This document shows positions 1-7,046 of a DNA stretch of 7,046 nt, piece by piece. Made by a program: the position numbers and the translations under genes. The stretch is from the IMG/VR virus record IMGVR_UViG_2563366883_000009; one strand, given 5' to 3'. Under the pieces are notes generated by a model. The model did no database searches, was not told the origin of the DNA, and was given only the letters and a program-made list of their open reading frames with translations. The stretch comes from a virus (Duplodnaviria; Heunggongvirae; Uroviricota; Caudoviricetes). How positions within the stretch are numbered: the first letter of the stretch is position 1; each line of letters opens with the position of its first letter.

Positions 1-1230
1 ATGAGCAGAGCACTTAACAAACTGAGCGATACACAGCTGAGGAAAATCAACGGCACACCCGCCCAAAAAACAGCCTTTCTTAATGACGGTGGAAACCTGA
101 GCGTCAGGCATTCAACCAGCGGCCTTTTAACCTGGTATTTCACCTACAGGGCCGGAACGGGAAGGGGAGCACGACCGGAACGGATTAAGCTGGGAAATTA
201 TCCTGATCTGAGTCTGAAAGCTGCCAGGGAAAAAGCGGCACAGTGTCGCGCTTGGCTTGCTGAGGGGAAAAATCCACGTCATGAGATGAATTACACCGTA
301 CAGAAAGCGTTAAAGCCCGTAACGGTTGGCGATGCGCTTACCTACTGGCTTGAGTCTTACGTAAAGGAAAACCGCGTGGATTATGCCGCCCTGAAAAAGC
401 GCCTTAATAATCACGTAATACAGCACATTGGTGCTATGCCGCTGGATAAATGCGAGCTACGGCACTGGCTGGCCTGTTTTGACCAGGTGGCAAAGCGAAC
501 GCCTGTTACTGCCGGATTCTTGCTACAGACGTGCAAACAGGCGCTTAAGTTCTGCCGGAGGCGGCGCTATGCAATCAGCAACGTTCTTGATGATATGAGT
601 GTGGCGGACGTTGGGAAAAAACCGGATATAAGCGAGCGTGTCTTAAGCACCAAAGAACTTGGCGAATTATTGCAGGCACTGGACAAAAAAATATTTTCCC
701 CTTACTACGTCGCACTAATCCGCCTCCTGATTGTTTTTGGATGCCGGACGGTAGAACTGAGGTTATCGGAGATCAGCGAGTGGGATTTTACCGAAATGCT
801 CTGGACCGTGCCGAAAGAACACAGCAAAACGAAGGTGGCAATATTCCGGCCCATACCGGAAGCAATACTGCCGTTCGTCACGCAGCTGGTGGAGCAGAAC
901 AGGCACACGGGCTTATTGCTGGGGGAAGTGAAACAGGAAACAAGCGTGTCGCAGTACGGCAGATTAGCGCACAGGAGGCTAAAACACCCTCACTGGTCAC
1001 TGCATGACATCCGGCGCACCTTTACAACGATGCTGAACGATTTAGGCGTGGATCCTCACGTCGTGGAGCAGCTTACAGGTCATCAGATGCCAGGGATGCA
1101 ACGAGTCTATAACCATTCCCGTTATCTGGATGCGAAACGTGACGCGCTGGATATGTGGACGGAGCGGTTAGGGATACTGGCGGGAACACATGAAAACGTA
1201 ACCACATTGCCAATAGCCAGAGAAATATAA
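1..1230 (+). CDS. int: Tyrosine-type site-specific recombinase, P4/CP4-57-like integrase (409 aa)
   Basis: Complete ORF starting at window position 1. N-terminus (KLSDTQLRK...GGNLSVRHSTSGLLTWYFTYR) resembles the arm-binding domain of P4-type integrases. C-terminal catalytic signature is present: GCRTVELRLSEI (Arg I), HWSLHDIRRTF (His-x-x-Arg), LTGHQMPGMQRVYNHSRY (catalytic Tyr region). Upstream RBS cannot be seen because the gene begins at base 1. Confidence 0.95.
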   Translation: MSRALNKLSDTQLRKINGTPAQKTAFLNDGGNLSVRHSTSGLLTWYFTYRAGTGRGARPERIKLGNYPDLSLKAAREKAAQCRAWLAEGKNPRHEMNYTVQKALKPVTVGDALTYWLESYVKENRVDYAALKKRLNNHVIQHIGAMPLDKCELRHWLACFDQVAKRTPVTAGFLLQTCKQALKFCRRRRYAISNVLDDMSVADVGKKPDISERVLSTKELGELLQALDKKIFSPYYVALIRLLIVFGCRTVELRLSEISEWDFTEMLWTVPKEHSKTKVAIFRPIPEAILPFVTQLVEQNRHTGLLLGEVKQETSVSQYGRLAHRRLKHPHWSLHDIRRTFTTMLNDLGVDPHVVEQLTGHQMPGMQRVYNHSRYLDAKRDALDMWTERLGILAGTHENVTTLPIAREI

Positions 1231-1257
1231 TTTTTTTTGCGATTTTTCAGGATGCGG

Positions 1258-1313
1258 ACAACGTGAAACAACGAGACACAACGACGAACAACAAGGAACA
1301 AAATGGAACAACG
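1258..1313. repeat. Six helically phased 10-bp direct repeats of ACAAC(G) type (ACAACG at 1258, 1268, 1278, 1308; ACAACA at 1288; ACAAAA at 1298)
   Basis: Read directly from sequence: ggACAACGtgaaACAACGagacACAACGacgaACAACAaggaACAAAAtggaACAACGgg, exact 10-bp period, ACA-rich, immediately 3' of the int stop codon. Confidence 0.6.
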
Positions 1314-1406
1314 GGTTAAAAATCAGCCATCGTAATAACCATTTGATTTTTATAGGTGTACTGTTTTTTTATACACTGGCGAATCACTCTTAAAAATATG
1401 TAAAAA

Positions 1407-1444
1407 AGGCGTAAAAGTAAAATTTTATGCCTTTGCATCATAAT
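1407..1444 (+). promoter_or_regulatory. Imperfect palindrome AGGCGTAAAA-n6-TTTTATGCCT (9 of 10 matched) followed by TTGCAT and a CATAAT -10-like hexamer; candidate operator/promoter upstream of alpA
   Basis: Inverted repeat arms at 1407-1416 and 1423-1432; CATAAT at 1439-1444. No convincing -35 at canonical spacing was found, so the promoter assignment is tentative. Confidence 0.25.
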
Positions 1445-1512
1445 GAATTAAAAGAGTTTTTATTCTCATTCCCCCTGCTTCTGTAAAACGACCGCCGCCA
1501 GTGTTTGCCATT

Positions 1513-1565
1513 CCACAAACACCCTGACACAATCCGACACAACCCAACCCAATAATCCACCCAAT
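1513..1565. repeat. CA-rich, almost G/T-free tract with tandem 10-bp units (GACACAATCC, GACACAACCC, AACCCAATAA, TCCACCCAAT)
   Basis: Strong strand compositional asymmetry read directly from sequence, about 30 bp upstream of the alpA start; candidate 5' leader or protein-binding array. Confidence 0.5.
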
Positions 1566-1595
1566 GACTCTTTAAGAAACAACAAAGGGGGAATT

Positions 1596-1784
1596 GTGTT
1601 AAGCACAGATCGCTTTATACGTGAAAAAGAATGTCAGCAACTTACAGGCCTGAGCCGCTCATGTCGGTACCGCCTGGAAAAAGCCGGACAATTCCCATCA
1701 CGGCGTAAGCTGGGCGGTCGTTCCGTTGGCTGGTCTTTATCCGAAGTTCTGGCATGGAAGGACAGCTGCGAGGCAGTTCACTAA
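1596..1784 (+). CDS. alpA: AlpA-family phage regulatory protein (small HTH transcriptional regulator/excisionase-like, 62 aa)
   Basis: GTG start at 1596 preceded by GGGGG (1587-1591). Protein carries the AlpA-family signature LTGLSRS..YRL.KAG.FP...KLGGRSVGW...EV.AW. Position directly after int is typical for this family. Confidence 0.88.
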   Translation: MLSTDRFIREKECQQLTGLSRSCRYRLEKAGQFPSRRKLGGRSVGWSLSEVLAWKDSCEAVH

Positions 1785-1790
1785 TCAGGC

Positions 1791-1809
1791 TGGCGGCACA
1801 CAGCCGCCA
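1791..1809 (+). other. Stem-loop (TGGCGGC-acaca-GCCGCCA) just after the alpA stop, without a U-tract
   Basis: Perfect 7-bp GC-rich inverted repeat with 5-nt loop; the following sequence is not T-rich, so it is not a canonical intrinsic terminator. Possible RNA structure or partial attenuator. Confidence 0.3.
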
Positions 1810-1836
1810 CCCATCCACTAATACAGAGATCTAACC

Positions 1837-3114
1837 ATGAATACTGGATATTCTCCCGAACAAGGGCGGGGCTTCGTTCGTCCTGAAAAACAGAATCTGC
1901 AAAATTTTGCCGAAATTATTCCGGTTATTTCCGGCCTTACTGGCGGGAGTGAAACCAATATTGTTAACGCCAGAGCGTTGCAGATGTTTGATGATAAAAA
2001 GGGAGTAAATTTAACTTACACCCCTGACGGCAATCAGAATATGAGCATTATCTCTGAGTCAGGTTTCTACAAACTAATAAAAACAAAAAGCGCCCCGTTG
2101 CCGGAGCGCCTTTGTGAACAATTAACCTACTGCGCAAAAAATGAATCTGAGCAGTGGGATTATATCAACCATGTGGAGAAGCGCCACAATTGCCGAATAA
2201 CGGGCAAAACAAAGGCCACCCGCTACGGTGGCCCCTCGACACAAGCTACACGTTATCCCCAACGCATGAGCATTGCCAACAATGCCACATTTGCGGCTGG
2301 TGGGCAATGCAATCAGTCTGGTTCAGTTCGTTGCCATACCTGCAATGAGCGCTTTTCCCTGTACTCTTTAAGGAATTGCTCAAGGGCAAAAGCACATGGC
2401 GCGAATCTTTCTGATTCATGCTCTATCTTTCTGCGCCGTCTTTTCCGTGCCGGTGATAATGTTTTGGTCAATTCTTTATCGGTCATTGTGTTGTCCTGCA
2501 TAGCAATGCGCCGTAGTTACTCACACCACGGCGCTGGTGATGGTTACTCCTGCTCTTTGGCCTTGCGACGCTGGCGGCGTTTGATCTCACCTTTAACGGC
2601 AGTAACTATAAATTGCGCCTTGCTTTCACCTTCATCTAAATTTTTTTCTAAGTCTGCAACAACATCATGCGGGAATCTGGCATTTAACTGTTGCGACTTA
2701 TTATTTGTTGAACCTGTTGCCATTACTGAATCCTCTCTAAGTTGGTGCGATTCAGTATACACAAAAAAAATTTCAGAGAAAGACTTGAAGTGCGATTCAC
2801 TTACTGATAGGTTAAAAACGAATGGTGCGATGCACCAAACAACAACGCCCCGCAGTGGTGGCACACATGCAGGGCGTCTAACCACCAACGATAGCGAAAG
2901 TATCGAGGTAGCTATGAGAAATCATACCATACACCCGCAAGGGCGGGACTCGCACAACCTGAATAAATACATCTGGCGTTTTATCGCCCTGAGCACGGCA
3001 CAACCGCGCGTGATTACCATTGAGGCCACCAGCGAACAGGAAGCACGCCAGCAATCTCCGGCTGGCTGCGTGATGGTATTTGCTGCCCGTATTCGTCAGG
3101 GGGTAGGCTTATGA
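1837..3114 (+). CDS. Longest open frame (425 aa); probably not one genuine gene. The 5' ~380 nt looks coding-like (weak Bro-N/antirepressor-like stretch NMSIISESGFYKLIKTKSAPL), the middle is antisense to a better-supported minus-strand gene, and the 3' 200 nt is probably the separate small gene 2914-3114
   Basis: No in-frame stop from 1837 to 3114 and no Shine-Dalgarno before the 1837 ATG. First-codon-position composition is purine-rich (coding-like) in 1837-2220 but T-rich (about 44 percent T by hand count) in 2521-2760. The translated middle section is Cys/Ser-rich. Confidence 0.3.
   Translation: MNTGYSPEQGRGFVRPEKQNLQNFAEIIPVISGLTGGSETNIVNARALQMFDDKKGVNLTYTPDGNQNMSIISESGFYKLIKTKSAPLPERLCEQLTYCAKNESEQWDYINHVEKRHNCRITGKTKATRYGGPSTQATRYPQRMSIANNATFAAGGQCNQSGSVRCHTCNERFSLYSLRNCSRAKAHGANLSDSCSIFLRRLFRAGDNVLVNSLSVIVLSCIAMRRSYSHHGAGDGYSCSLALRRWRRLISPLTAVTINCALLSPSSKFFSKSATTSCGNLAFNCCDLLFVEPVAITESSLSWCDSVYTKKISEKDLKCDSLTDRLKTNGAMHQTTTPRSGGTHAGRLTTNDSESIEVAMRNHTIHPQGRDSHNLNKYIWRFIALSTAQPRVITIEATSEQEARQQSPAGCVMVFAARIRQGVGL
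2201..2233 (-). terminator. Candidate rho-independent terminator for the minus-strand module
   Basis: Perfect hairpin GGCCACC-cgctac-GGTGGCC (2214-2233), followed on the minus strand by TTTGTTTTG (complement of plus 2205-2213); lies about 80 nt past the stop of the minus-strand ORF ending at 2313. Confidence 0.45.
2313..2486 (-). CDS. Hypothetical small basic protein (57 aa, MTDKELTKTLSPARKRRRRK...), possible second gene of the minus-strand operon
   Basis: ATG at 2486 preceded by AGGA with 5-nt spacing; the ORF track starts 5 codons earlier at 2501 without an SD. Codon statistics are equivocal and there are several rare Arg codons. Confidence 0.3.
   Translation of the reverse strand: MTDKELTKTLSPARKRRRRKIEHESERFAPCAFALEQFLKEYREKRSLQVWQRTEPD
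2544..2723 (-). CDS. Arc/Mnt-like ribbon-helix-helix DNA-binding protein (59 aa); putative repressor
   Basis: Internal ATG at 2723 of the 2544-2888 minus ORF, preceded by GAGAGGA about 8 nt upstream. Protein LNARFPHDVVADLEKNLDEGESKAQFIVTAVKGEI aligns by eye with the P22 Arc pattern FNLRWPREVLDLVRKVAEENGRSVNSEIYQRV (beta-strand, helix A, G-x-S turn, helix B). First-codon-position composition is G>A>C>T, as in real genes, by hand count. Confidence 0.7.
   Translation of the reverse strand: MATGSTNNKSQQLNARFPHDVVADLEKNLDEGESKAQFIVTAVKGEIKRRQRRKAKEQE
2724..2913. promoter_or_regulatory. Divergent AT-rich control region with three direct repeats GTGCGAT(T/G)CA (2745-2754, 2790-2799, 2825-2834) and a TATACT -10-like element for the minus-strand gene (plus coordinates 2754-2759)
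   Basis: Repeats read directly; copy 1 overlaps the candidate -10/start region of the RHH gene. An inverted pair TGAATC (2727-2732) / GATTCA (2749-2754) flanks the RHH RBS. The -35 assignments are weak. Confidence 0.5.
2914..3114 (+). CDS. Hypothetical small protein (66 aa); likely first gene of the plus-strand operon (alternative model to the 425-aa ORF)
   Basis: ATG at 2914 preceded by GAGGT (2905-2909); coding-like first-position composition (T about 12 percent) and high GC3; stop overlaps the next start in ATGA at 3111-3114. Confidence 0.5.
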   Translation: MRNHTIHPQGRDSHNLNKYIWRFIALSTAQPRVITIEATSEQEARQQSPAGCVMVFAARIRQGVGL

Positions 3115-3341
3115 GCCAGGAAATCACACTACAACAGGCAGCAGAACGCGCCCACCAAATCGAAGTTATTTGCGCACTGGCAGAGGATTACCCTGGCATG
3201 ATGACCGACAGCGAATCAGGGGCAATCATCGGCTTACTTAAACGCCTTAGCGGTGAGGTCTGCGTATTCCTGAGCGATGAACAGGAAAGAAGAACGCTTA
3301 TTTCTAACGAAAAAAAATGCGGAGGGGTACATGTGCAATAA
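3111..3341 (+). CDS. Hypothetical small protein (76 aa)
   Basis: ATG at 3111 overlapping the upstream stop (ATGA); GGGGGTAGG RBS at 3096-3104; protein-like composition. Confidence 0.6.
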   Translation: MSQEITLQQAAERAHQIEVICALAEDYPGMMTDSESGAIIGLLKRLSGEVCVFLSDEQERRTLISNEKKCGGVHVQ

Positions 3342-3555
3342 AACCACACCGGACGCAGCCGCCGCCGCGCTCACTACGCTGATGCACGCGCTTATTGATA
3401 TTTCTGTTATTGCTGACAGGGCGCATAAACACGCAGCCAGAGAATCAGAATGCATCTTCCATTATTTAACATTTGTGCAGCTAAAAGCCGATCAGGCACT
3501 GGATAAGGCCGGAAAAATTATCATGGCTGATGTGCAGGAGGTGCACCATGCATAA
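3331..3555 (+). CDS. Hypothetical small protein (74 aa from the internal start; the ORF track gives 3277)
   Basis: ATG at 3331 has a GGAGGGG RBS (3321-3327) and only an 11-nt overlap with the upstream gene; the 3277 ATG lacks a good SD and would overlap by 65 nt. Confidence 0.5.
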   Translation: MCNKTTPDAAAAALTTLMHALIDISVIADRAHKHAARESECIFHYLTFVQLKADQALDKAGKIIMADVQEVHHA

Positions 3556-3913
3556 CCTGTCAATTTCTGACCTTAACAGCATTCAGTTTGACGAGAAATT
3601 TACCGGGCAGTTGCTGGTCAATGTGGAGAACGGGCGCATAGTGCGTAATTATCACCTGCCGGATGGTGCAATTGCCGGAAGCGTTGAAGCATTGCTGGAA
3701 CTGGCGGAACGTGCGCGACTGATTAAGCCGTCAACGAGCCATCACGATGATGATCTGCATTTTACCGGATGTATGGTGAGTCACTACGAAAACGGCGTCG
3801 AGGTATCCTGCGAACGGCTGCGTGATGATTGCTGTTTCGGCACACTGCCGGAATTTATCGAGTTGCTGACCAGTTGCGGTTATCAGGTCATTCAGGGGGG
3901 TAAACATGCGTGA
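3548..3913 (+). CDS. Hypothetical protein (121 aa from the internal start; the ORF track gives 3530)
   Basis: ATG at 3548 preceded by a perfect AGGAGG (3536-3541) with 6-nt spacing; overlaps the upstream stop by 8 nt. Confidence 0.65.
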   Translation: MHNLSISDLNSIQFDEKFTGQLLVNVENGRIVRNYHLPDGAIAGSVEALLELAERARLIKPSTSHHDDDLHFTGCMVSHYENGVEVSCERLRDDCCFGTLPEFIELLTSCGYQVIQGGKHA

Positions 3914-4127
3914 TGATCGTTTTAATTCCCTGAAACAGGAATTTTCCGGCGTTCCTGATGATGCGGCTGATGCGCTTTCGTCAATGCCAGAGCTTATTAG
4001 AGCGGATTTTTTCTTACTTTCCACGAGAGAATATAAATCAACGGGGCTTGATGTACTGAATATCGTCGCCGATTATGCTGATTTCGTGACAGAGGTTATT
4101 TTAAGAAAAACGACGGACGGGGATTAA
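3906..4127 (+). CDS. Hypothetical small acidic protein (73 aa)
   Basis: ATG at 3906 with GGGGGG RBS (3895-3900); overlaps the upstream stop in ATGCGTGA. Confidence 0.6.
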   Translation: MRDDRFNSLKQEFSGVPDDAADALSSMPELIRADFFLLSTREYKSTGLDVLNIVADYADFVTEVILRKTTDGD

Positions 4128-4128
4128 T

Positions 4129-4362
4129 ATGCGTGATATTTACCTTGAAACAATAGACCGCGCATTTCTTGCACTTTCTCACAGTGAAAGCATGATGGAA
4201 ATATTACGCATATGGCTTGAAACACTTGGCGACAATGAACGCAACAAACAAAAATCAAGAATTGCCACGGCATTAATAACGCTTCTTGAGCCTGTAATAA
4301 TGGAACTGCAAGAAATAGATCTATTGCACGATATATATAAAGAACAGCACACCGGAGAATAA
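4129..4362 (+). CDS. Hypothetical small protein (77 aa)
   Basis: ATG at 4129 one base after the upstream TAA; GGGGA RBS at 4119-4123. Confidence 0.6.
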   Translation: MRDIYLETIDRAFLALSHSESMMEILRIWLETLGDNERNKQKSRIATALITLLEPVIMELQEIDLLHDIYKEQHTGE

Positions 4363-4367
4363 AAATA

Positions 4368-4667
4368 ATGAAACTTAAATATTCTGGCTTAACTGCCAGT
4401 GGCAACACTCACCCTAAATTTACGCGCGGTGATATTTACCGCGACCAGTACGGCGGCACGGTAATGATTAAGGGCGTGGAAGAACGGCGCGTAACCTACC
4501 GCCGTGAAGGTTACGAATATGATTGCGTGATGCCTGTTTATCAGTTCCGGCGTGATTTTTCTCTGGTACAGACCGCGCCGCATAACGTGCCCACCAGCAA
4601 CGCCAGGGCACGGGCAAACATCCAGAAGCTGAAAACCATGATTAACGGATTCAGGGGCAAGAAATGA
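4368..4667 (+). CDS. Hypothetical protein (99 aa)
   Basis: ATG at 4368 with GGAG (4354-4357); stop overlaps the helicase start in ATGA at 4664-4667. Confidence 0.6.
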   Translation: MKLKYSGLTASGNTHPKFTRGDIYRDQYGGTVMIKGVEERRVTYRREGYEYDCVMPVYQFRRDFSLVQTAPHNVPTSNARARANIQKLKTMINGFRGKK

Positions 4668-6064
4668 AAAGCGCACCGAACTTAAAAAAACAGCCTTACG
4701 ACAAGATGACCGAAGTCATTATTTTTGCGGGTAGTGATGCCTGGGCACATGCGAAACAGTGGCAGGAACAGGACGGGCGACTGGCTGGCGATAATGTGCC
4801 TCCCGTTGTGCTGGCTGATGATCAACTGGATGAACTGGCAGACCTGAGAATCATCGACGAGGGGCGCTATTGTGTCCGGCTGTACAAGGCAGGCCACATC
4901 AGGCCATCAAATATTAATGCCATTGCGCACAAGCTGGCGGCGGCGGGTGTAACTGATGCGAATTATTACCCCGAAGGGATGCACAGCCATATGCGGGAGA
5001 ACTGGCGCGAATACCTGGAACGGGTGCGCGGGAAAGAGCCGGCGGAAGAAAAAAACCACCAGCGAAAAACCACGCTACCGATGAGCGTTGGATCTACCGG
5101 ATACGACACGCAACTGGATTACGTGGTTAAGGGGATTATTCCGGCGGTATCGCTATGCAGCATATACGGGGCTAGCGGGTCCTATAAATCATTCCTTGCC
5201 GGATCGTGGGCGTGCCATGTTGCCACTGGTCGCCAGTGGGGAGGCCGCAGGGTTGCACATGGTGCGGTTCTCTATGTGGTTGGTGAAGGCGGTATAGGTG
5301 TTCCGCGTCGTGTAAAAGCCTGGGAGGTTGTGCACGATGAGCAGGTGAAAAATCTGTATCTGGTAAACCGCCCCATCTTTCCGGCTGCCCCGCTTGATGT
5401 TGATGAAATGGTTATCGCTGCCCGTCAGGTGGAGCGGGAAACGGGTAAACCTGTACGCATGATTATTCTGGATACGCTGGCGCGTTGCTTTGGTGGGAAT
5501 GATGAAAATGATTCCCGTGATATGGGGGCGTTTATCCGTGGTTGTGACGAACTGAAACGACGCACAGGGGCCACGGTGCTGGTGGTTCACCATTCCGGCA
5601 AGGATGAGACGAAAGGCGCGCGCGGTTCCAGTGCATTTCGTGCTTCGCTGGATGCTGAATACCGGATACGCAGGGAGGACGCAGGAAGCGAAGCGCTGGT
5701 TATCTCATGCACCAAAATGAAGGACGCGGAGGAACTCAAAGAAGCCGCATATGACTTACGCGTGGTGGAGCTTTTTACCGACGCTGACGGTGAATTAATC
5801 ACGTCGCTGGTGGTGGTGGATGATCCGCGCCCTCCTGTTGAACTGGAGCGCATCGAGGAGGCAGGGAACAAGACGGAAAACCATACCGCGCTATGGGGGT
5901 GCATCCGTTCACGCACACAGAACGGCGACAAGTGCACGATCCCGCTGTTACGTGATGACATGAAAAAGCTGGGGTATGAAATGAAAAACTTCCGGCGCTG
6001 GCTGTACAAGCTGGAAAAAGATGGGGTTATTCGTATCGATGGGGATGATGTAGCGCCGCTATAA
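4664..6064 (+). CDS. Replication protein: RepA/DnaB-like (AAA_25-type) helicase ATPase with an N-terminal toprim-like region (466 aa); satellite/PICI-type primase-helicase module
   Basis: P-loop-like IYGASGSYKSFLAGSWACHVATG, Walker B-like MIILDTLARCFGG and the VLVVHHSGKDETKGARGSSA motif typical of RepA-like helicases. The N-terminal TEVIIFAGSD...VVLADDQLDE stretch is toprim-like by eye only. Translationally coupled to the upstream gene. Confidence 0.9.
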   Translation: MKSAPNLKKQPYDKMTEVIIFAGSDAWAHAKQWQEQDGRLAGDNVPPVVLADDQLDELADLRIIDEGRYCVRLYKAGHIRPSNINAIAHKLAAAGVTDANYYPEGMHSHMRENWREYLERVRGKEPAEEKNHQRKTTLPMSVGSTGYDTQLDYVVKGIIPAVSLCSIYGASGSYKSFLAGSWACHVATGRQWGGRRVAHGAVLYVVGEGGIGVPRRVKAWEVVHDEQVKNLYLVNRPIFPAAPLDVDEMVIAARQVERETGKPVRMIILDTLARCFGGNDENDSRDMGAFIRGCDELKRRTGATVLVVHHSGKDETKGARGSSAFRASLDAEYRIRREDAGSEALVISCTKMKDAEELKEAAYDLRVVELFTDADGELITSLVVVDDPRPPVELERIEEAGNKTENHTALWGCIRSRTQNGDKCTIPLLRDDMKKLGYEMKNFRRWLYKLEKDGVIRIDGDDVAPL

Positions 6065-6255
6065 AAGTGAGGAGCAAAAGCGAGGTGGATAGAAAGAGGG
6101 CCAAAATTAGCCTGCTCTCCCTCACTTTTCTACCTGTATACATCCTCAAAAGTGAGGGGTAAAAAAATACTTATGAAACACACACATAGAAAAACCAAAA
6201 ATCCCAATTGCGACGAAGTGAGACGCTTGAAAAAGTGAGGCGAAAAAGTGAGAGG
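6063..6255. repeat. Iteron-like array of AAAAGTGAGG: perfect copies at 6063-6072, 6148-6157, 6231-6240 and inverted at 6119-6128; degenerate copies at 6077-6086, 6214-6223, 6244-6253; with an A/T-rich spacer at 6160-6205. Candidate replication origin
   Basis: Read directly from sequence, starting at the helicase stop codon. In SaPI-type elements the ori with iterons sits immediately 3' of the rep gene. Confidence 0.55.
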
Positions 6256-6264
6256 TTGCGAGAA

Positions 6265-6516
6265 ATGACCCAAAAACGCAGAGACAGAACAGAGCCGAAA
6301 TATAAGGCGTTAGATATGGCTGAACTGGCTTTAAAGGTGGCAATCAGAACGATAGACCGCCACGCGGGGGAAGGATACGCGAAGGAGCATCCCGAACTGA
6401 TAAGCGCATTCATGACCACAGCGGCGGCAAACTTTGCCACGCTGACAGAAAGGGAGATTTCCGAAGCGGAACAGGTAACAACCATCAACGTTAAAACCGG
6501 AGAGGTGGAAGCATGA
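6265..6516 (+). CDS. Hypothetical small protein (83 aa from the internal ATG; the ORF track starts at TTG 6208 inside the repeat array)
   Basis: ATG at 6265 preceded by GAGAGG (6250-6255); the 6208 start would translate the iteron repeats themselves. Confidence 0.5.
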   Translation: MTQKRRDRTEPKYKALDMAELALKVAIRTIDRHAGEGYAKEHPELISAFMTTAAANFATLTEREISEAEQVTTINVKTGEVEA

Positions 6517-6818
6517 GCGAACCAAAATTTGGTGAAAAATTTTACAAGCACAACGGACGGATCACGATTCTGCAAATAAGCGCAGCTACACCAGGCTGGT
6601 GGGTTGAAACAGACGAAGGATCCTCACCCGTGGCATCATGGGCGCTTTGTGTGCTTAGTTACCCTGACCGCGATGTGTATCAGGATATTCTGCCTGTGAT
6701 ATCCACTGACAAAGGCATGAAACCCGTAGACATCAAAAACATGGGTTTTCAGTGCGTAATGCTCACTGAAAAAATGATGGAAGAGATGAAAAAGAACAAC
6801 GCCGGATCGCTTCACTGA
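6513..6818 (+). CDS. Hypothetical protein (101 aa)
   Basis: ATG at 6513 overlapping the upstream stop (ATGA); GGAGAGG RBS at 6499-6505. Confidence 0.6.
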   Translation: MSEPKFGEKFYKHNGRITILQISAATPGWWVETDEGSSPVASWALCVLSYPDRDVYQDILPVISTDKGMKPVDIKNMGFQCVMLTEKMMEEMKKNNAGSLH

Positions 6819-6827
6819 GGTGGCAAT

Positions 6828-7046
6828 ATGACAGCACAAATTGCAGCTTACGGGCGGCTGGTGGAGACAGACAAGGAACGGCATCACATCACGATGCGAC
6901 GGCTGGAATGTTCCAGGAAGGCACAGAGGCCACCGGAGCCGCCGGATAATTACGGAGACCTGAAAAAGGCGGTCGATCGCACTTATGCCGAAATGGGTAT
7001 GGATGGTGCTGGTGATGAAATATGGCGAAATTACCAGGACAGATAA
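6828..7046 (+). CDS. Hypothetical small protein (72 aa), complete; stop is the last codon of the window
   Basis: ATG at 6828 preceded by GAGGTGG (6817-6823); protein-like composition. Confidence 0.6.
   Translation: MTAQIAAYGRLVETDKERHHITMRRLECSRKAQRPPEPPDNYGDLKKAVDRTYAEMGMDGAGDEIWRNYQDR

What the first reader, a model, noticed from the sequence alone, without database searches (positions are those of the whole stretch)
1..7046. Element architecture: int-alpA-(switch)-small ORFs-rep-ori, consistent with a satellite/PICI-like island; att and payload lie outside the window
Gene order and orientation match the integrase-proximal half of phage satellites. The window starts exactly at the int start codon, so the attachment site (commonly a tRNA or tmRNA 3' end for P4-type integrases) and any packaging or accessory hotspot genes are not visible here. 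The three coupled ORFs after the candidate ori (6265-7046) may begin the late or packaging-redirection operon.
Basis: inference. Interest (0 to 1): 0.4.

Follow-up and report, generated by a model that had tools for sequence, protein, structure and literature searches.

The report
Left half of capsid-forming phage satellite

Summary
Confirmed. The gene order is int (1-1230), alpA (1596-1784), a regulatory "switch" (1837-3114), six small coupled ORFs, a RepA-type helicase (4664-6064), an iteron origin (6064-6253), then three more ORFs.

The window is 100% identical to part of E. coli chromosome CP065619.1. There it forms the left 7 kb of a 14.8-kb island between roxA and phoQ.

The right half encodes an HK97-type capsid, protease, portal, head closure protein, adaptor, HNH, TerS and TerL. 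It has no tail or lysis genes. This makes it a capsid-forming PICI, 97-98% identical to the island of an O157:H7 strain, the serotype of the EcCIEDL933 prototype.

- att is not a tRNA. It is a roughly 10-bp core at the phoQ stop codon.
- The last three ORFs end the early operon, with a terminator just past the window. They do not start a packaging-redirection operon.

The "switch" matches the phage P4 vis-eta/kil layout. A 425-codon ORF starts after alpA and ends in an Icd/Kil-like domain. It runs antisense across a leftward YlcI/YnfO-like gene pair. Its frame is kept open across at least 24 sequence variants, which is the only mildly new observation.

The parts
1..1230 (+). Tyrosine integrase of the P4/CP4-57 type, with an arm-binding N-terminal domain
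   Evidence: PF13356 9.5e-19 and PF00589 5.4e-17. phrog_1 integrase, 3.3e-74.
1258..1311 (-). Array of five 10-bp-phased repeats related to TTGTTYCACGTTGT. Candidate Int-arm or AlpA binding sites (inferred).
   Evidence: TRF period 10, 4.4 copies. The motif gives 9 matches in L012 against 0.41 expected; the others lie in both att arms and upstream of the capsid gene.
1505..1533 (+). Promoter-like site upstream of alpA (candidate PalpA). It overlaps a second 10-bp-phased ACACAA array at 1526-1553.
   Evidence: TTGCCA-17-CACAAT with an extended TG. TRF period 10. Consensus match only.
1596..1784 (+). alpA, the AlpA/Vis-family regulator that acts as master activator of Gram-negative PICIs
   Evidence: PF05930 3e-18. 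PDB 8c3t AlpA family, 2.6e-6. 47% identical to P4 Vis/ORF88, E 2e-17. The role is taken from PMC6092414 and the cf-PICI paper.
1837..3114 (+). Long eta-like ORF of 425 codons (the 'Bro zone' gene). It starts 52 nt after alpA, ends in the Icd/Kil-like domain, and overlaps the next gene's start codon.
   Evidence: It has no stops, while the other five frames have 14-27 each; shuffles reach at most 207 open codons. The frame is kept open in at least 24 of 41 sequence clusters, and all length differences are multiples of 3. It has the same layout as P4 vis-eta/kil (PMC10111431).
1966..2106 (+). Remnant of a Bro-N/anti-repressor domain inside the long ORF
   Evidence: phrog_130 Ant, 6.9e-6, aa 52-81. 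Pfam Bro-N only 0.062. Longer relatives carry an intact PF02498 domain (P0031, P0108).
2086..2113 (-). Strong intrinsic terminator for the leftward operon
   Evidence: 12-pair stem followed by TTTTTGTTTTTATT on the (-) strand.
2313..2486 (-). Leftward 57-aa ORF of unknown function, highly conserved among islands
   Evidence: phrog_21027, 1.2e-15. Present on the (-) strand in 71 of 82 AlpA-anchored loci. Annotated by PGAP in relatives.
2544..2723 (-). Leftward YlcI/YnfO-family 59-aa gene, a candidate repressor (inferred). Its alleles are highly variable.
   Evidence: NF041551 1.5e-17. phrog_949 3.5e-24. 134 homologues across Enterobacterales. Present on the (-) strand in 68 of 82 loci at 32-100% identity. 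The fold was not confirmed.
2823..2837 (.). Perfect palindrome TGGTGC-ATC-GCACCA in the divergent intergenic region 2724-2913. Candidate operator (inferred).
   Evidence: Found as a 6-pair stem by the scan. Sequence seen.
2914..3114 (+). Icd/Kil-like 66-aa ORF with its own Shine-Dalgarno sequence (GAGG), nested at the 3' end of the long ORF
   Evidence: NF033153 2.5e-19. phrog_6196 7.4e-55 and phrog_1743 1.3e-22. The C-terminus of P4 Eta hits the same NF033153 (1.2e-20) and phrog_1743.
3111..4362 (+). Five overlapping, coupled small ORFs of unknown function: 3111-3341, 3331-3555, 3548-3913, 3906-4127 and 4129-4362
   Evidence: phrog_1478, 5146, 340/2512, 24341 and 2196, all 'unknown function'. 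No PADLOC hit.
4368..4667 (+). DUF4222 protein, coupled to rep
   Evidence: PF13973, 1.6e-24.
4664..6064 (+). Replication initiator/helicase (RepA family, AAA_25), the PICI 'pri-rep' gene
   Evidence: PF13481 2.4e-43. phrog_2850 5.7e-267. Weak match to RSF1010 RepA, PDB 1g8y. No primase domain was detected.
6064..6253 (.). Replication origin: iterons AAAGTGAGG at 6064, 6077, 6120(-) and 6149, then an AT-rich stretch at 6157-6216, then iterons at 6232 and 6245
   Evidence: The same layout, two iteron sets flanking an AT-rich region 3' of rep, is described for E. coli PICIs in PMC6092414.
6265..6516 (+). 83-aa ORF of unknown function. The start is the ATG at 6265, not the TTG at 6208.
   Evidence: phrog_1231, full length, 3.2e-51.
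6513..6818 (+). 101-aa ORF of unknown function
   Evidence: phrog_27268, 7.6e-70.
6828..7046 (+). In-frame fusion: SSB residues 1-12 joined to PerC-family residues 31-90
   Evidence: PF06069 1.9e-24, matching profile positions 29-89 only. A 477-bp deletion at the microhomology CTGGTGGA relative to the O157:H7 island.

Best explanation
The window is the Integration, Bro (regulatory) and Replication zones of an EcCIEDL933-type capsid-forming phage-inducible chromosomal island (cf-PICI). The whole element is about 14.8 kb. It sits in the 75-bp roxA-phoQ spacer of E. coli, and its core attachment sequence overlaps the phoQ stop codon.

**Shown here**
- The gene content and order of the window.
- The island boundaries and the full late module in the window's own contig.
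- Near-identity to the island of an O157:H7 strain.
- Homology of the alpA to long-ORF to Icd layout with phage P4 vis-eta/kil.

**Taken from published work on EcCIEDL933, EcCICFT073 and P4, and inferred to apply here**
1. A helper phage (HK106- or HK446-like for the prototype) raises alpA expression.
2. AlpA activates its own promoter and the island's rightward genes.
3. Transcription runs from alpA into the long eta-like ORF. Translating that ORF keeps Rho from terminating the transcript.
4. The transcript therefore crosses the leftward YlcI-like/orf57 operon and reaches the small ORFs and rep.
5. Int excises the island, probably with AlpA acting at the arm repeats.
6. RepA fires the iteron origin just downstream of its own gene.
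7. The late operon outside the window builds small capsids and packages island DNA. Only tails are taken from the helper.
For: **Identity and boundaries**
- The window is 100% identical to L012:3174-10219, L009 and L010.
- L012 carries, between roxA and phoQ: int, alpA, RepA, the PerC fusion, then Phage_capsid, Peptidase_S78, portal, head closure, connector, HNH, Terminase_4 and TerL. Nothing else is present.
- Alignment with the empty K-12 site places the junctions at GGGCATATTT.
- The island is 97-98% identical along its whole length to that of O157:H7 strain F6321, apart from two deletions.

**Published descriptions that match**
- EcCIEDL933.
- The 11 core components of cfPICI, with tail and holin genes forbidden.
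- The four PICI zones: Integration, Bro, Replication and Late.
- The ori layout matches PMC6092414.

**The switch**
- AlpA is 47% identical to P4 Vis.
- The Icd-like ORF and the C-terminus of P4 Eta hit the same NF033153 and phrog_1743 models.
- The long frame is kept open.

**Mobility**
- The same island, 100% identical over more than 13 kb, lies in hosts whose flanks differ by 1-2%. This implies recent mobility.
Against: - Nothing in the window alone distinguishes a cf-PICI from a classical PICI. The identical RepA protein also occurs at the same att site in islands with a lambda-type late zone, carrying Phage_cap_E, HDPD and Nu1 (L002-L007). The cf assignment therefore rests on the three contigs that hold the exact window.
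- This variant has lost the SSB gene, the first 30 residues of PerC and a further 327 bp. Full function is not guaranteed.
- No primase domain was detected in 'pri-rep'.
- Identity with EcCIEDL933 itself was inferred through another O157:H7 strain. The EDL933 record was not fetched.
- Helper dependence, AlpA activation and the anti-termination role of the long ORF are all transferred from relatives.
Confidence: 0.92

Rival explanations
1. It is the left half of a classical PICI that forms no capsid, like EcCICFT073 or EcCIED1a. Such an element redirects helper packaging instead of building its own capsid.
For: The int, alpA and rep modules are shared between classical PICIs and cf-PICIs. The identical 466-aa RepA lies in islands at the same roxA/phoQ site that carry only Phage_cap_E, HDPD and Nu1-type TerS (L002-L007).
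Against: Every contig holding the exact window sequence (L009, L010, L012), and every contig holding its SSB-PerC fusion (L008-L015), continues into the full set of HK97-type capsid, protease, portal, adaptor, connector, HNH, TerS and TerL. Portal, adaptor and connector are forbidden components for the PICI model.
Confidence: 0.04
2. It is a P4-like satellite.
For: It has a P4-type integrase with an arm-binding domain. AlpA is 47% identical to Vis. The vis-eta/kil layout is conserved.
Against: No alpha primase, epsilon, sid, delta or psu is found in the window or in L012. att is not a tRNA gene. The element has its own capsid and terminase genes.
Confidence: 0.01
3. It is a decayed prophage remnant that only looks like a satellite.
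For: The late genes are phage-like. This variant carries two internal deletions and a truncated PerC.
Against: The architecture is conserved across hundreds of genomes. It has intact att repeats, intact int, alpA and rep, and a full late module. A 100%-identical copy occurs in hosts with flanks diverged by 1-2%. int points inward and alpA is present, which is typical of PICIs and not of prophages.
Confidence: 0.03

Closest known systems
EcCIEDL933, the prototype capsid-forming PICI of E. coli O157:H7 (Alqurainy et al., bioRxiv 10.1101/2022.09.08.507074; Cell Host Microbe 2023)
   Same: It has the same gene order: int, alpA, variable gene, small ORFs, rep, ori, PerC, capsid, protease, portal, connectors, HNH, TerS, TerL. 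It has no tail or lysis genes. The window's island has the same roxA/phoQ insertion site as, and is 97-98% identical in DNA to, the island of O157:H7 strain F6321, which stands in for EDL933.
   Different: The island is 14.8 kb rather than 15.4 kb. It has a 477-bp in-frame deletion that removes SSB and fuses its first 12 codons to PerC residue 31. A second, 327-bp deletion removes a 74-aa ORF just outside the window. The EDL933 record itself was not compared.
EcCICFT073 / EcCIED1a, classical Gram-negative PICIs (Fillol-Salom et al. 2018, PMC6092414)
   Same: int, alpA and rep are of the same families. The ori has two iteron sets flanking an AT-rich stretch just 3' of rep. AlpA is the activator induced by the helper, and PerC-like accessory genes are present.
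   Different: Classical PICIs lack a portal, connectors and TerL, and use helper capsid proteins. This island carries them all.
Phage-plasmid P4 left operon, vis-eta/kil (Forti et al. 1999, J Bacteriol 181:5225, as summarised in PMC10111431)
   Same: The Vis/AlpA gene is followed directly by a long ORF whose last 65 or so codons form a separately translatable Kil/Icd-like protein. In P4 the ORF is 199 codons, in the window 425. Both C-termini hit NF033153 and phrog_1743.
   Different: The window gave no C4/isrK (CI RNA) match. Instead, the window's long ORF runs antisense over two leftward protein genes and their terminator. It also carries a Bro-N remnant.
PICI four-zone model and 'Bro zone' (PMC10111431)
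   Same: Integration (Int, AlpA), Bro, Replication (primase, SSB, ori) and Late zones occur in this order. The window covers the first three.
   Different: That paper does not mention antisense-embedded genes in the Bro gene, as far as I read (sections shown only).

Membership tests
cf-PICI (cfPICI, SatelliteFinder model; Alqurainy criteria) | Integrase at one end, transcribed inward | tested here: met
   int at 1-1230 has PF13356 and PF00589. It lies 176 bp from the attL core in L012.
cf-PICI (cfPICI, SatelliteFinder model; Alqurainy criteria) | AlpA-type regulator next to int | tested here: met
   PF05930, 3e-18. PDB 8c3t.
cf-PICI (cfPICI, SatelliteFinder model; Alqurainy criteria) | Primase/replicase gene followed by an iteron origin | tested here: met
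   AAA_25 RepA helicase, 2.4e-43. Iterons lie in 6064-6253, with 5 found against 0.17 expected. Caveat: no primase domain was detected.
cf-PICI (cfPICI, SatelliteFinder model; Alqurainy criteria) | Own major capsid protein, maturation protease and portal | tested here: met
   These lie outside the window, in its own contig, at L012 10507-13490. They hit phrog_10, phrog_80 and phrog_12, and PF05065, PF04586 and PF04860.
cf-PICI (cfPICI, SatelliteFinder model; Alqurainy criteria) | Head-tail adaptor and connector/head-closure genes | tested here: met
   L012 13487-14118: phrog_25 (Hc1) and phrog_40 (Ad1).
cf-PICI (cfPICI, SatelliteFinder model; Alqurainy criteria) | HNH, TerS and TerL | tested here: met
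   L012 14118-16848: phrog_144, phrog_83 and phrog_9.
cf-PICI (cfPICI, SatelliteFinder model; Alqurainy criteria) | No tail and no holin or lysis genes between the att sites | tested here: met
   All called genes between attL and attR are accounted for. Only a 93-aa protein of unknown function follows TerL.
cf-PICI (cfPICI, SatelliteFinder model; Alqurainy criteria) | Size of about 10-15 kb, bounded by att repeats at a site of its own | tested here: met
   14,775 bp from core to core. The GGGCATATTT junctions were defined against the empty K-12 site. All loci seen at this site held PICI-type islands. Whether prophages ever use the site was not surveyed.
cf-PICI (cfPICI, SatelliteFinder model; Alqurainy criteria) | Helper-phage- and alpA-dependent induction, with small island-encoded capsids joined to helper tails | not testable with these tools
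   Shown for EcCIEDL933 with HK106 and HK446. The only indirect support here is an identical island in hosts with diverged flanks.
Classical PICI (Fillol-Salom 2018; SatelliteFinder PICI model) | Absence of phage structural genes; portal, adaptor and connector are forbidden components | tested here: not met
   Portal, adaptor and head-closure genes are present in L012. The rule is quoted.
P4-like satellite | Alpha primase-helicase, epsilon, and sid/delta/psu capsid-size and late-control genes | tested here: not met
   No such family was hit in the window or in L012. P4 itself is shown.
P4-like satellite | Vis followed by the nested eta/kil ORFs at the head of the replication operon | tested here: met
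   This is a shared layout and is not sufficient for membership.

The most novel reading that the evidence does not exclude
The 'switch' of this large group of E. coli PICIs and cf-PICIs is a two-strand overlap under double selection.

A long ORF of 330-480 codons is translated only on the AlpA-driven transcript. It is laid antisense over a leftward operon made of a hypervariable YlcI/YnfO-like gene, a conserved 57-aa gene and a terminator. The synonymous sites of the leftward genes are constrained so that the rightward frame never acquires a stop.

In the model, read-through translation works as for P4 eta: it blocks Rho and collides with the leftward operon. The YlcI/YnfO-like protein would then be the long-sought resident repressor or immunity determinant of Gram-negative PICIs.

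I rate the selection signal itself as likely real. The functional reading is inference.
Probability: 0.35. Interest if true: 0.5.

Novelty: already known. Interest (0 to 1): 0.2.

Why it matters
As an architecture call, it matters little. cf-PICIs of this type are described, experimentally characterised and detected routinely by SatelliteFinder. This copy is a slightly deleted allele of the prototype.

It is useful as a worked example in three ways:
- The int-proximal half cannot by itself tell a PICI from a cf-PICI.
- P4-type integrases do not imply a tRNA att site.
- A deletion variant lacking SSB and full-length PerC still appears to spread.

The one lead worth keeping is the regulatory region. 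No master repressor is known for Gram-negative PICIs (PMC6092414). The hypervariable leftward YlcI/YnfO-like gene is embedded antisense in a frame-maintained eta-like ORF, and it gives a concrete, testable candidate for how these islands stay silent and switch on.

Tried and rejected
- **Rfam search.** Scanning the whole window at E<=1 gave no hit. There was in particular no C4/isrK (P4 CI RNA-type) match, so an RNA-based immunity like P4's is not supported here.
- **Fold of the YlcI/YnfO-like protein.** A PDB sequence search and a profile search found nothing. An AlphaFold model built from 31 homologues reached only pLDDT 70, with two helices. Foldseek gave E=10. The ribbon-helix-helix/repressor label therefore stays an inference.
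- **PADLOC.** The ten small ORFs gave no defence-system hit.
- **Kil/Icd link to P4.** tblastn of the Icd-like ORF against the phage collection found one unrelated 16.5-kb record and not P4. Pairwise BLASTP to P4 Eta was not significant, E 0.14. The link to P4 Kil rests on shared profile hits.
- **Papers not available.** The original P4 eta/kil paper (PMC94026) and the cf-PICI supplementary tables are not held. I could not check whether roxA/phoQ is one of the six published cf-PICI attB sites.
- **The 75-nt repeat.** I first read the 75-nt imperfect direct repeat (D1) as the att core. Alignment with the empty K-12 site showed that it lies inside the island, as arm repeats. The true core is the short D16 repeat.
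- **Explanations rejected for the 425-codon ORF.**
  - Chance: shuffles reach at most 207 open codons.
  - A classical 'shadow ORF': it is in the frame where third codon positions coincide, not the codon-aligned antisense frame (own derivation).
  - A functional 425-aa protein throughout: the middle is Cys/Ser/Arg-rich antisense translation.


Full report

Yes.

- int lies at 1-1230, with Arm-DNA-bind_3 (9.5e-19) and Phage_integrase (5.4e-17).
- alpA lies at 1596-1784, PF05930 3e-18. It matches PDB 8c3t, 'AlpA family phage regulatory protein'.
- A run of overlapping small ORFs spans 3111-4667, ending in DUF4222.
- A RepA-family AAA_25 helicase lies at 4664-6064, 2.4e-43.
- Three further ORFs lie at 6265-6516, 6513-6818 and 6828-7046. 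The last is PerC family, 1.9e-24.

The candidate origin is real as a sequence feature. AAAGTGAG occurs five times against 0.17 expected, all in 6064-6252. With one mismatch allowed on the 9-mer, all six matches in the window lie in 6064-6253. They form two groups around a 67% AT stretch at 6157-6216. This is the layout published for E. coli PICI origins (PMC6092414).

The window begins on the int ATG and ends on the PerC stop codon. It holds no tRNA.

**2. Where does it sit?**

Megablast finds related DNA in 1882 of 5426 complete E. coli genomes. The best full-length match is an O157:H7 strain at 96.9%. There the region lies between roxA and phoQ. It continues into major capsid, HK97 protease, portal, head closure, connector, HNH, TerS and TerL, and then stops.

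Looking up the window's own proteins by exact sequence recovered contigs that contain the window at 100% identity: L009, L010 and L012. L012 is GCA_016026355.1, CP065619.1, a 4.95-Mb chromosome. The flanks of L012 are 100% and 99.96% identical to K-12 MG1655.

In L012 the island carries int, alpA, RepA and the PerC fusion. It then carries Phage_capsid, Peptidase_S78, portal, head closure (Hc1), adaptor (Ad1), HNH, Terminase_4, TerL and a 93-aa protein of unknown function. There are no tail or lysis genes and no tRNA.

**3. Attachment site**

K-12 has roxA and phoQ only 75 bp apart. Aligning that empty site with both island ends shows chromosome sequence running up to GGGCATATTT on each side (repeat D16). 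The core overlaps the phoQ stop codon by two bases. The island is 14,775 bp from core to core.

Inside each end lie arm repeats. A tandem GGTGTAGTTAAT x2 gives 4 matches against 0.05 expected. TTGTTYCACGTTGT gives 9 matches against 0.41 expected.

The second motif recurs in two other places:
- a five-unit array with 10-bp phasing just downstream of int, at window 1258-1311;
- upstream of the capsid gene, in cf-type islands only.

Which protein binds which motif is not known. I infer Int arm sites and AlpA sites.

**4. What it is**

The content meets the published definitions of a capsid-forming PICI. These are the 11 core components with tails and holins forbidden (PMC10085698) and the criteria of the EcCIEDL933 paper. 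It also fits the Integration-Bro-Replication-Late zone order of PMC10111431.

The L012 island aligns end to end with the O157:H7 island at 97-98%, apart from two deletions.

The window alone could not have settled cf-PICI against classical PICI. The identical RepA protein also sits at the same att site in islands whose late zone has only lambda-type E, D and Nu1 homologues (L002-L007). That fits the reported exchange of left halves between the two families.

P4-like membership fails: there is no alpha, sid, delta or psu, and no tRNA att.

**5.

- att is not a tRNA gene (section 3).
- ORFs 6265-7046 are not the start of a late or packaging-redirection operon. Relatives have an SSB gene among them, which puts them in the Replication zone. 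An intrinsic terminator follows the PerC stop at L012 10226-10243. The capsid gene starts 288 bp beyond the window, behind its own copy of the TTGTTCCACGTTGT motif.

**6. What is peculiar to this copy**

Relative to the O157:H7 island, a 477-bp in-frame deletion at the microhomology CTGGTGGA removes SSB. It joins SSB codons 1-12 to PerC residue 31, giving the 72-aa ORF at 6828-7046. A second, 327-bp deletion just outside the window removes a 74-aa ORF.

The fusion protein is on record in 47 index blocks, against 10,148 for RepA. The deleted island occurs at 100% identity over more than 13 kb in hosts whose flanking genes differ by 1-2%. I read this as recent horizontal spread, which would make SSB and intact PerC dispensable. 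This is an inference.

**7. The 'switch' (1785-3114)**

*Leftward genes.* PGAP annotates two leftward genes and a short rightward Icd-like gene here in relatives.

- The leftward YlcI/YnfO-like gene at 2544-2723 has a strong Shine-Dalgarno sequence. It hits NF041551 at 1.5e-17 and has 134 homologues of constant length across Enterobacterales.
- The leftward pair is followed by a textbook terminator at 2113-2086.

*The long rightward frame.* The (+) frame from 1822 to 3114 has no stop, while the other five frames have 14-27 each. Shuffles never exceed 207 open codons.

*The frame in an independent sample.* I anchored a sample of 82 loci on AlpA alone.
- The alpA-to-icd interval falls into 41 sequence clusters.
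- In at least 24 clusters the Icd frame is open all the way.
- Within each of the two start types, the interval lengths are all congruent modulo 3.
- 68 of 82 loci carry a YlcI-like gene and 71 of 82 carry the 57-aa gene, always on the (-) strand inside that frame.

*Codon test.* In this phase, a (+) stop can arise only where a (-) codon starting with CA or TA follows a codon ending in T (or C, before TA).
- Across 37 YlcI alleles, such preceding codons end in T in 0 of 161 cases, against 29% elsewhere in the same genes.
- In the 57-aa gene the figure is 1 of 29. The one exception is the locus whose long ORF is broken.
- The alleles are related, so the naive P value overstates the case. The preceding codons do vary (TCA/TCG, CCA/CCG/CCC, GCG/GCC, GGG/GGA) without ever using T.

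*Precedent.* This layout has one in phage P4. There, vis is followed at once by a 199-codon frame. Its C-terminus hits the same Icd-like models as window 2914-3114. AlpA and Vis are 47% identical.

PMC10111431 summarises Forti et al. 1999 as follows. Eta is translated only from the upstream promoter and is coupled to the alpA homologue. Its translation prevents termination. Kil is its nested C-terminal part.

*What I take from this.* The long ORF is a known kind of feature, a Bro-zone/eta-like gene. What I did not find described is that in these islands it overlies a leftward protein-coding operon. I also found no C4/isrK RNA match.

*The repressor idea.* The high allelic diversity of the YlcI-like gene (32-100% identity), next to an almost invariant 57-aa gene, is what an immunity determinant would show. 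Its DNA-binding fold could not be confirmed.

**8. Verdict**

The element is an already-known kind and nearly an allele of the prototype. Interest is low. The regulatory overlap is a modest lead, recorded under the novel case.

Noticed in passing
window 1822-3114: A 430-codon stop-free (+) frame runs antisense through two real (-) strand genes, their terminator and the divergent intergenic region. The frame is maintained in at least 24 of 41 variant clusters. T-ending codons are avoided in 0 of 161 at-risk positions of the (-) strand YlcI-like gene.
   Followed up: yes
window 6828-7046: The PerC-family ORF is an in-frame fusion of SSB codons 1-12 to PerC residue 31. It was made by a 477-bp deletion at the microhomology CTGGTGGA, and the SSB gene of related islands is gone.
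   Followed up: yes
L012 10219-10507, against L001 19551-19877: A second deletion of 327 bp lies just past the window end. It removes a 74-aa ORF in the variable region before the capsid operon.
   Followed up: partly
window 1258-1311; L012 3085-3108, 10277-10290 and 17620-17633: The motif TTGTTYCACGTTGT occurs in both att arms and as a 10-bp-phased array after int. In cf-type islands only, it also occurs upstream of the capsid gene. The internal copy resembles the attR arm over 35 nt (77%). It could be an AlpA box or a scar of module capture.
   Followed up: partly
L012 3128-3151 and 17653-17676: A tandem GGTGTAGTTAAT x2 lies in both island arms, 4 matches against 0.05 expected. These are probably integrase arm-type sites.
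   Followed up: partly
L002-L007, about 13146-15929: The identical RepA protein and the same roxA/phoQ att site are combined with a different late zone: a lambda E-like capsid, a D-like decoration protein and a Nu1-like TerS. This is module swapping between PICI and cf-PICI.
   Followed up: partly
L008, L009, L014 and L015 against L012: The deleted island variant is 99.7-100% identical across its late zone in hosts whose flanking pepT-roxA and phoQ-phoP DNA differs by 1-2%. This suggests recent horizontal transfer.
   Followed up: partly
L019, L020 (IMG/VR contigs): Copies in the same sequence cluster as the window carry a 1-nt deletion that breaks the long ORF after 305 codons. Either the ORF is not essential in every copy or these copies are decaying.
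   Followed up: no
window 2544-2723 against 2313-2486, across 82 loci: The YlcI/YnfO-like alleles range from 32 to 100% identity, while the adjacent 57-aa gene is mostly 100% conserved. This is the pattern expected of an immunity or repressor determinant next to a conserved partner.
   Followed up: partly
window 2823-2837: A perfect palindrome, TGGTGC-ATC-GCACCA, lies in the divergent promoter region between the YlcI-like gene and the Icd-like gene. It is a possible operator.
   Followed up: no
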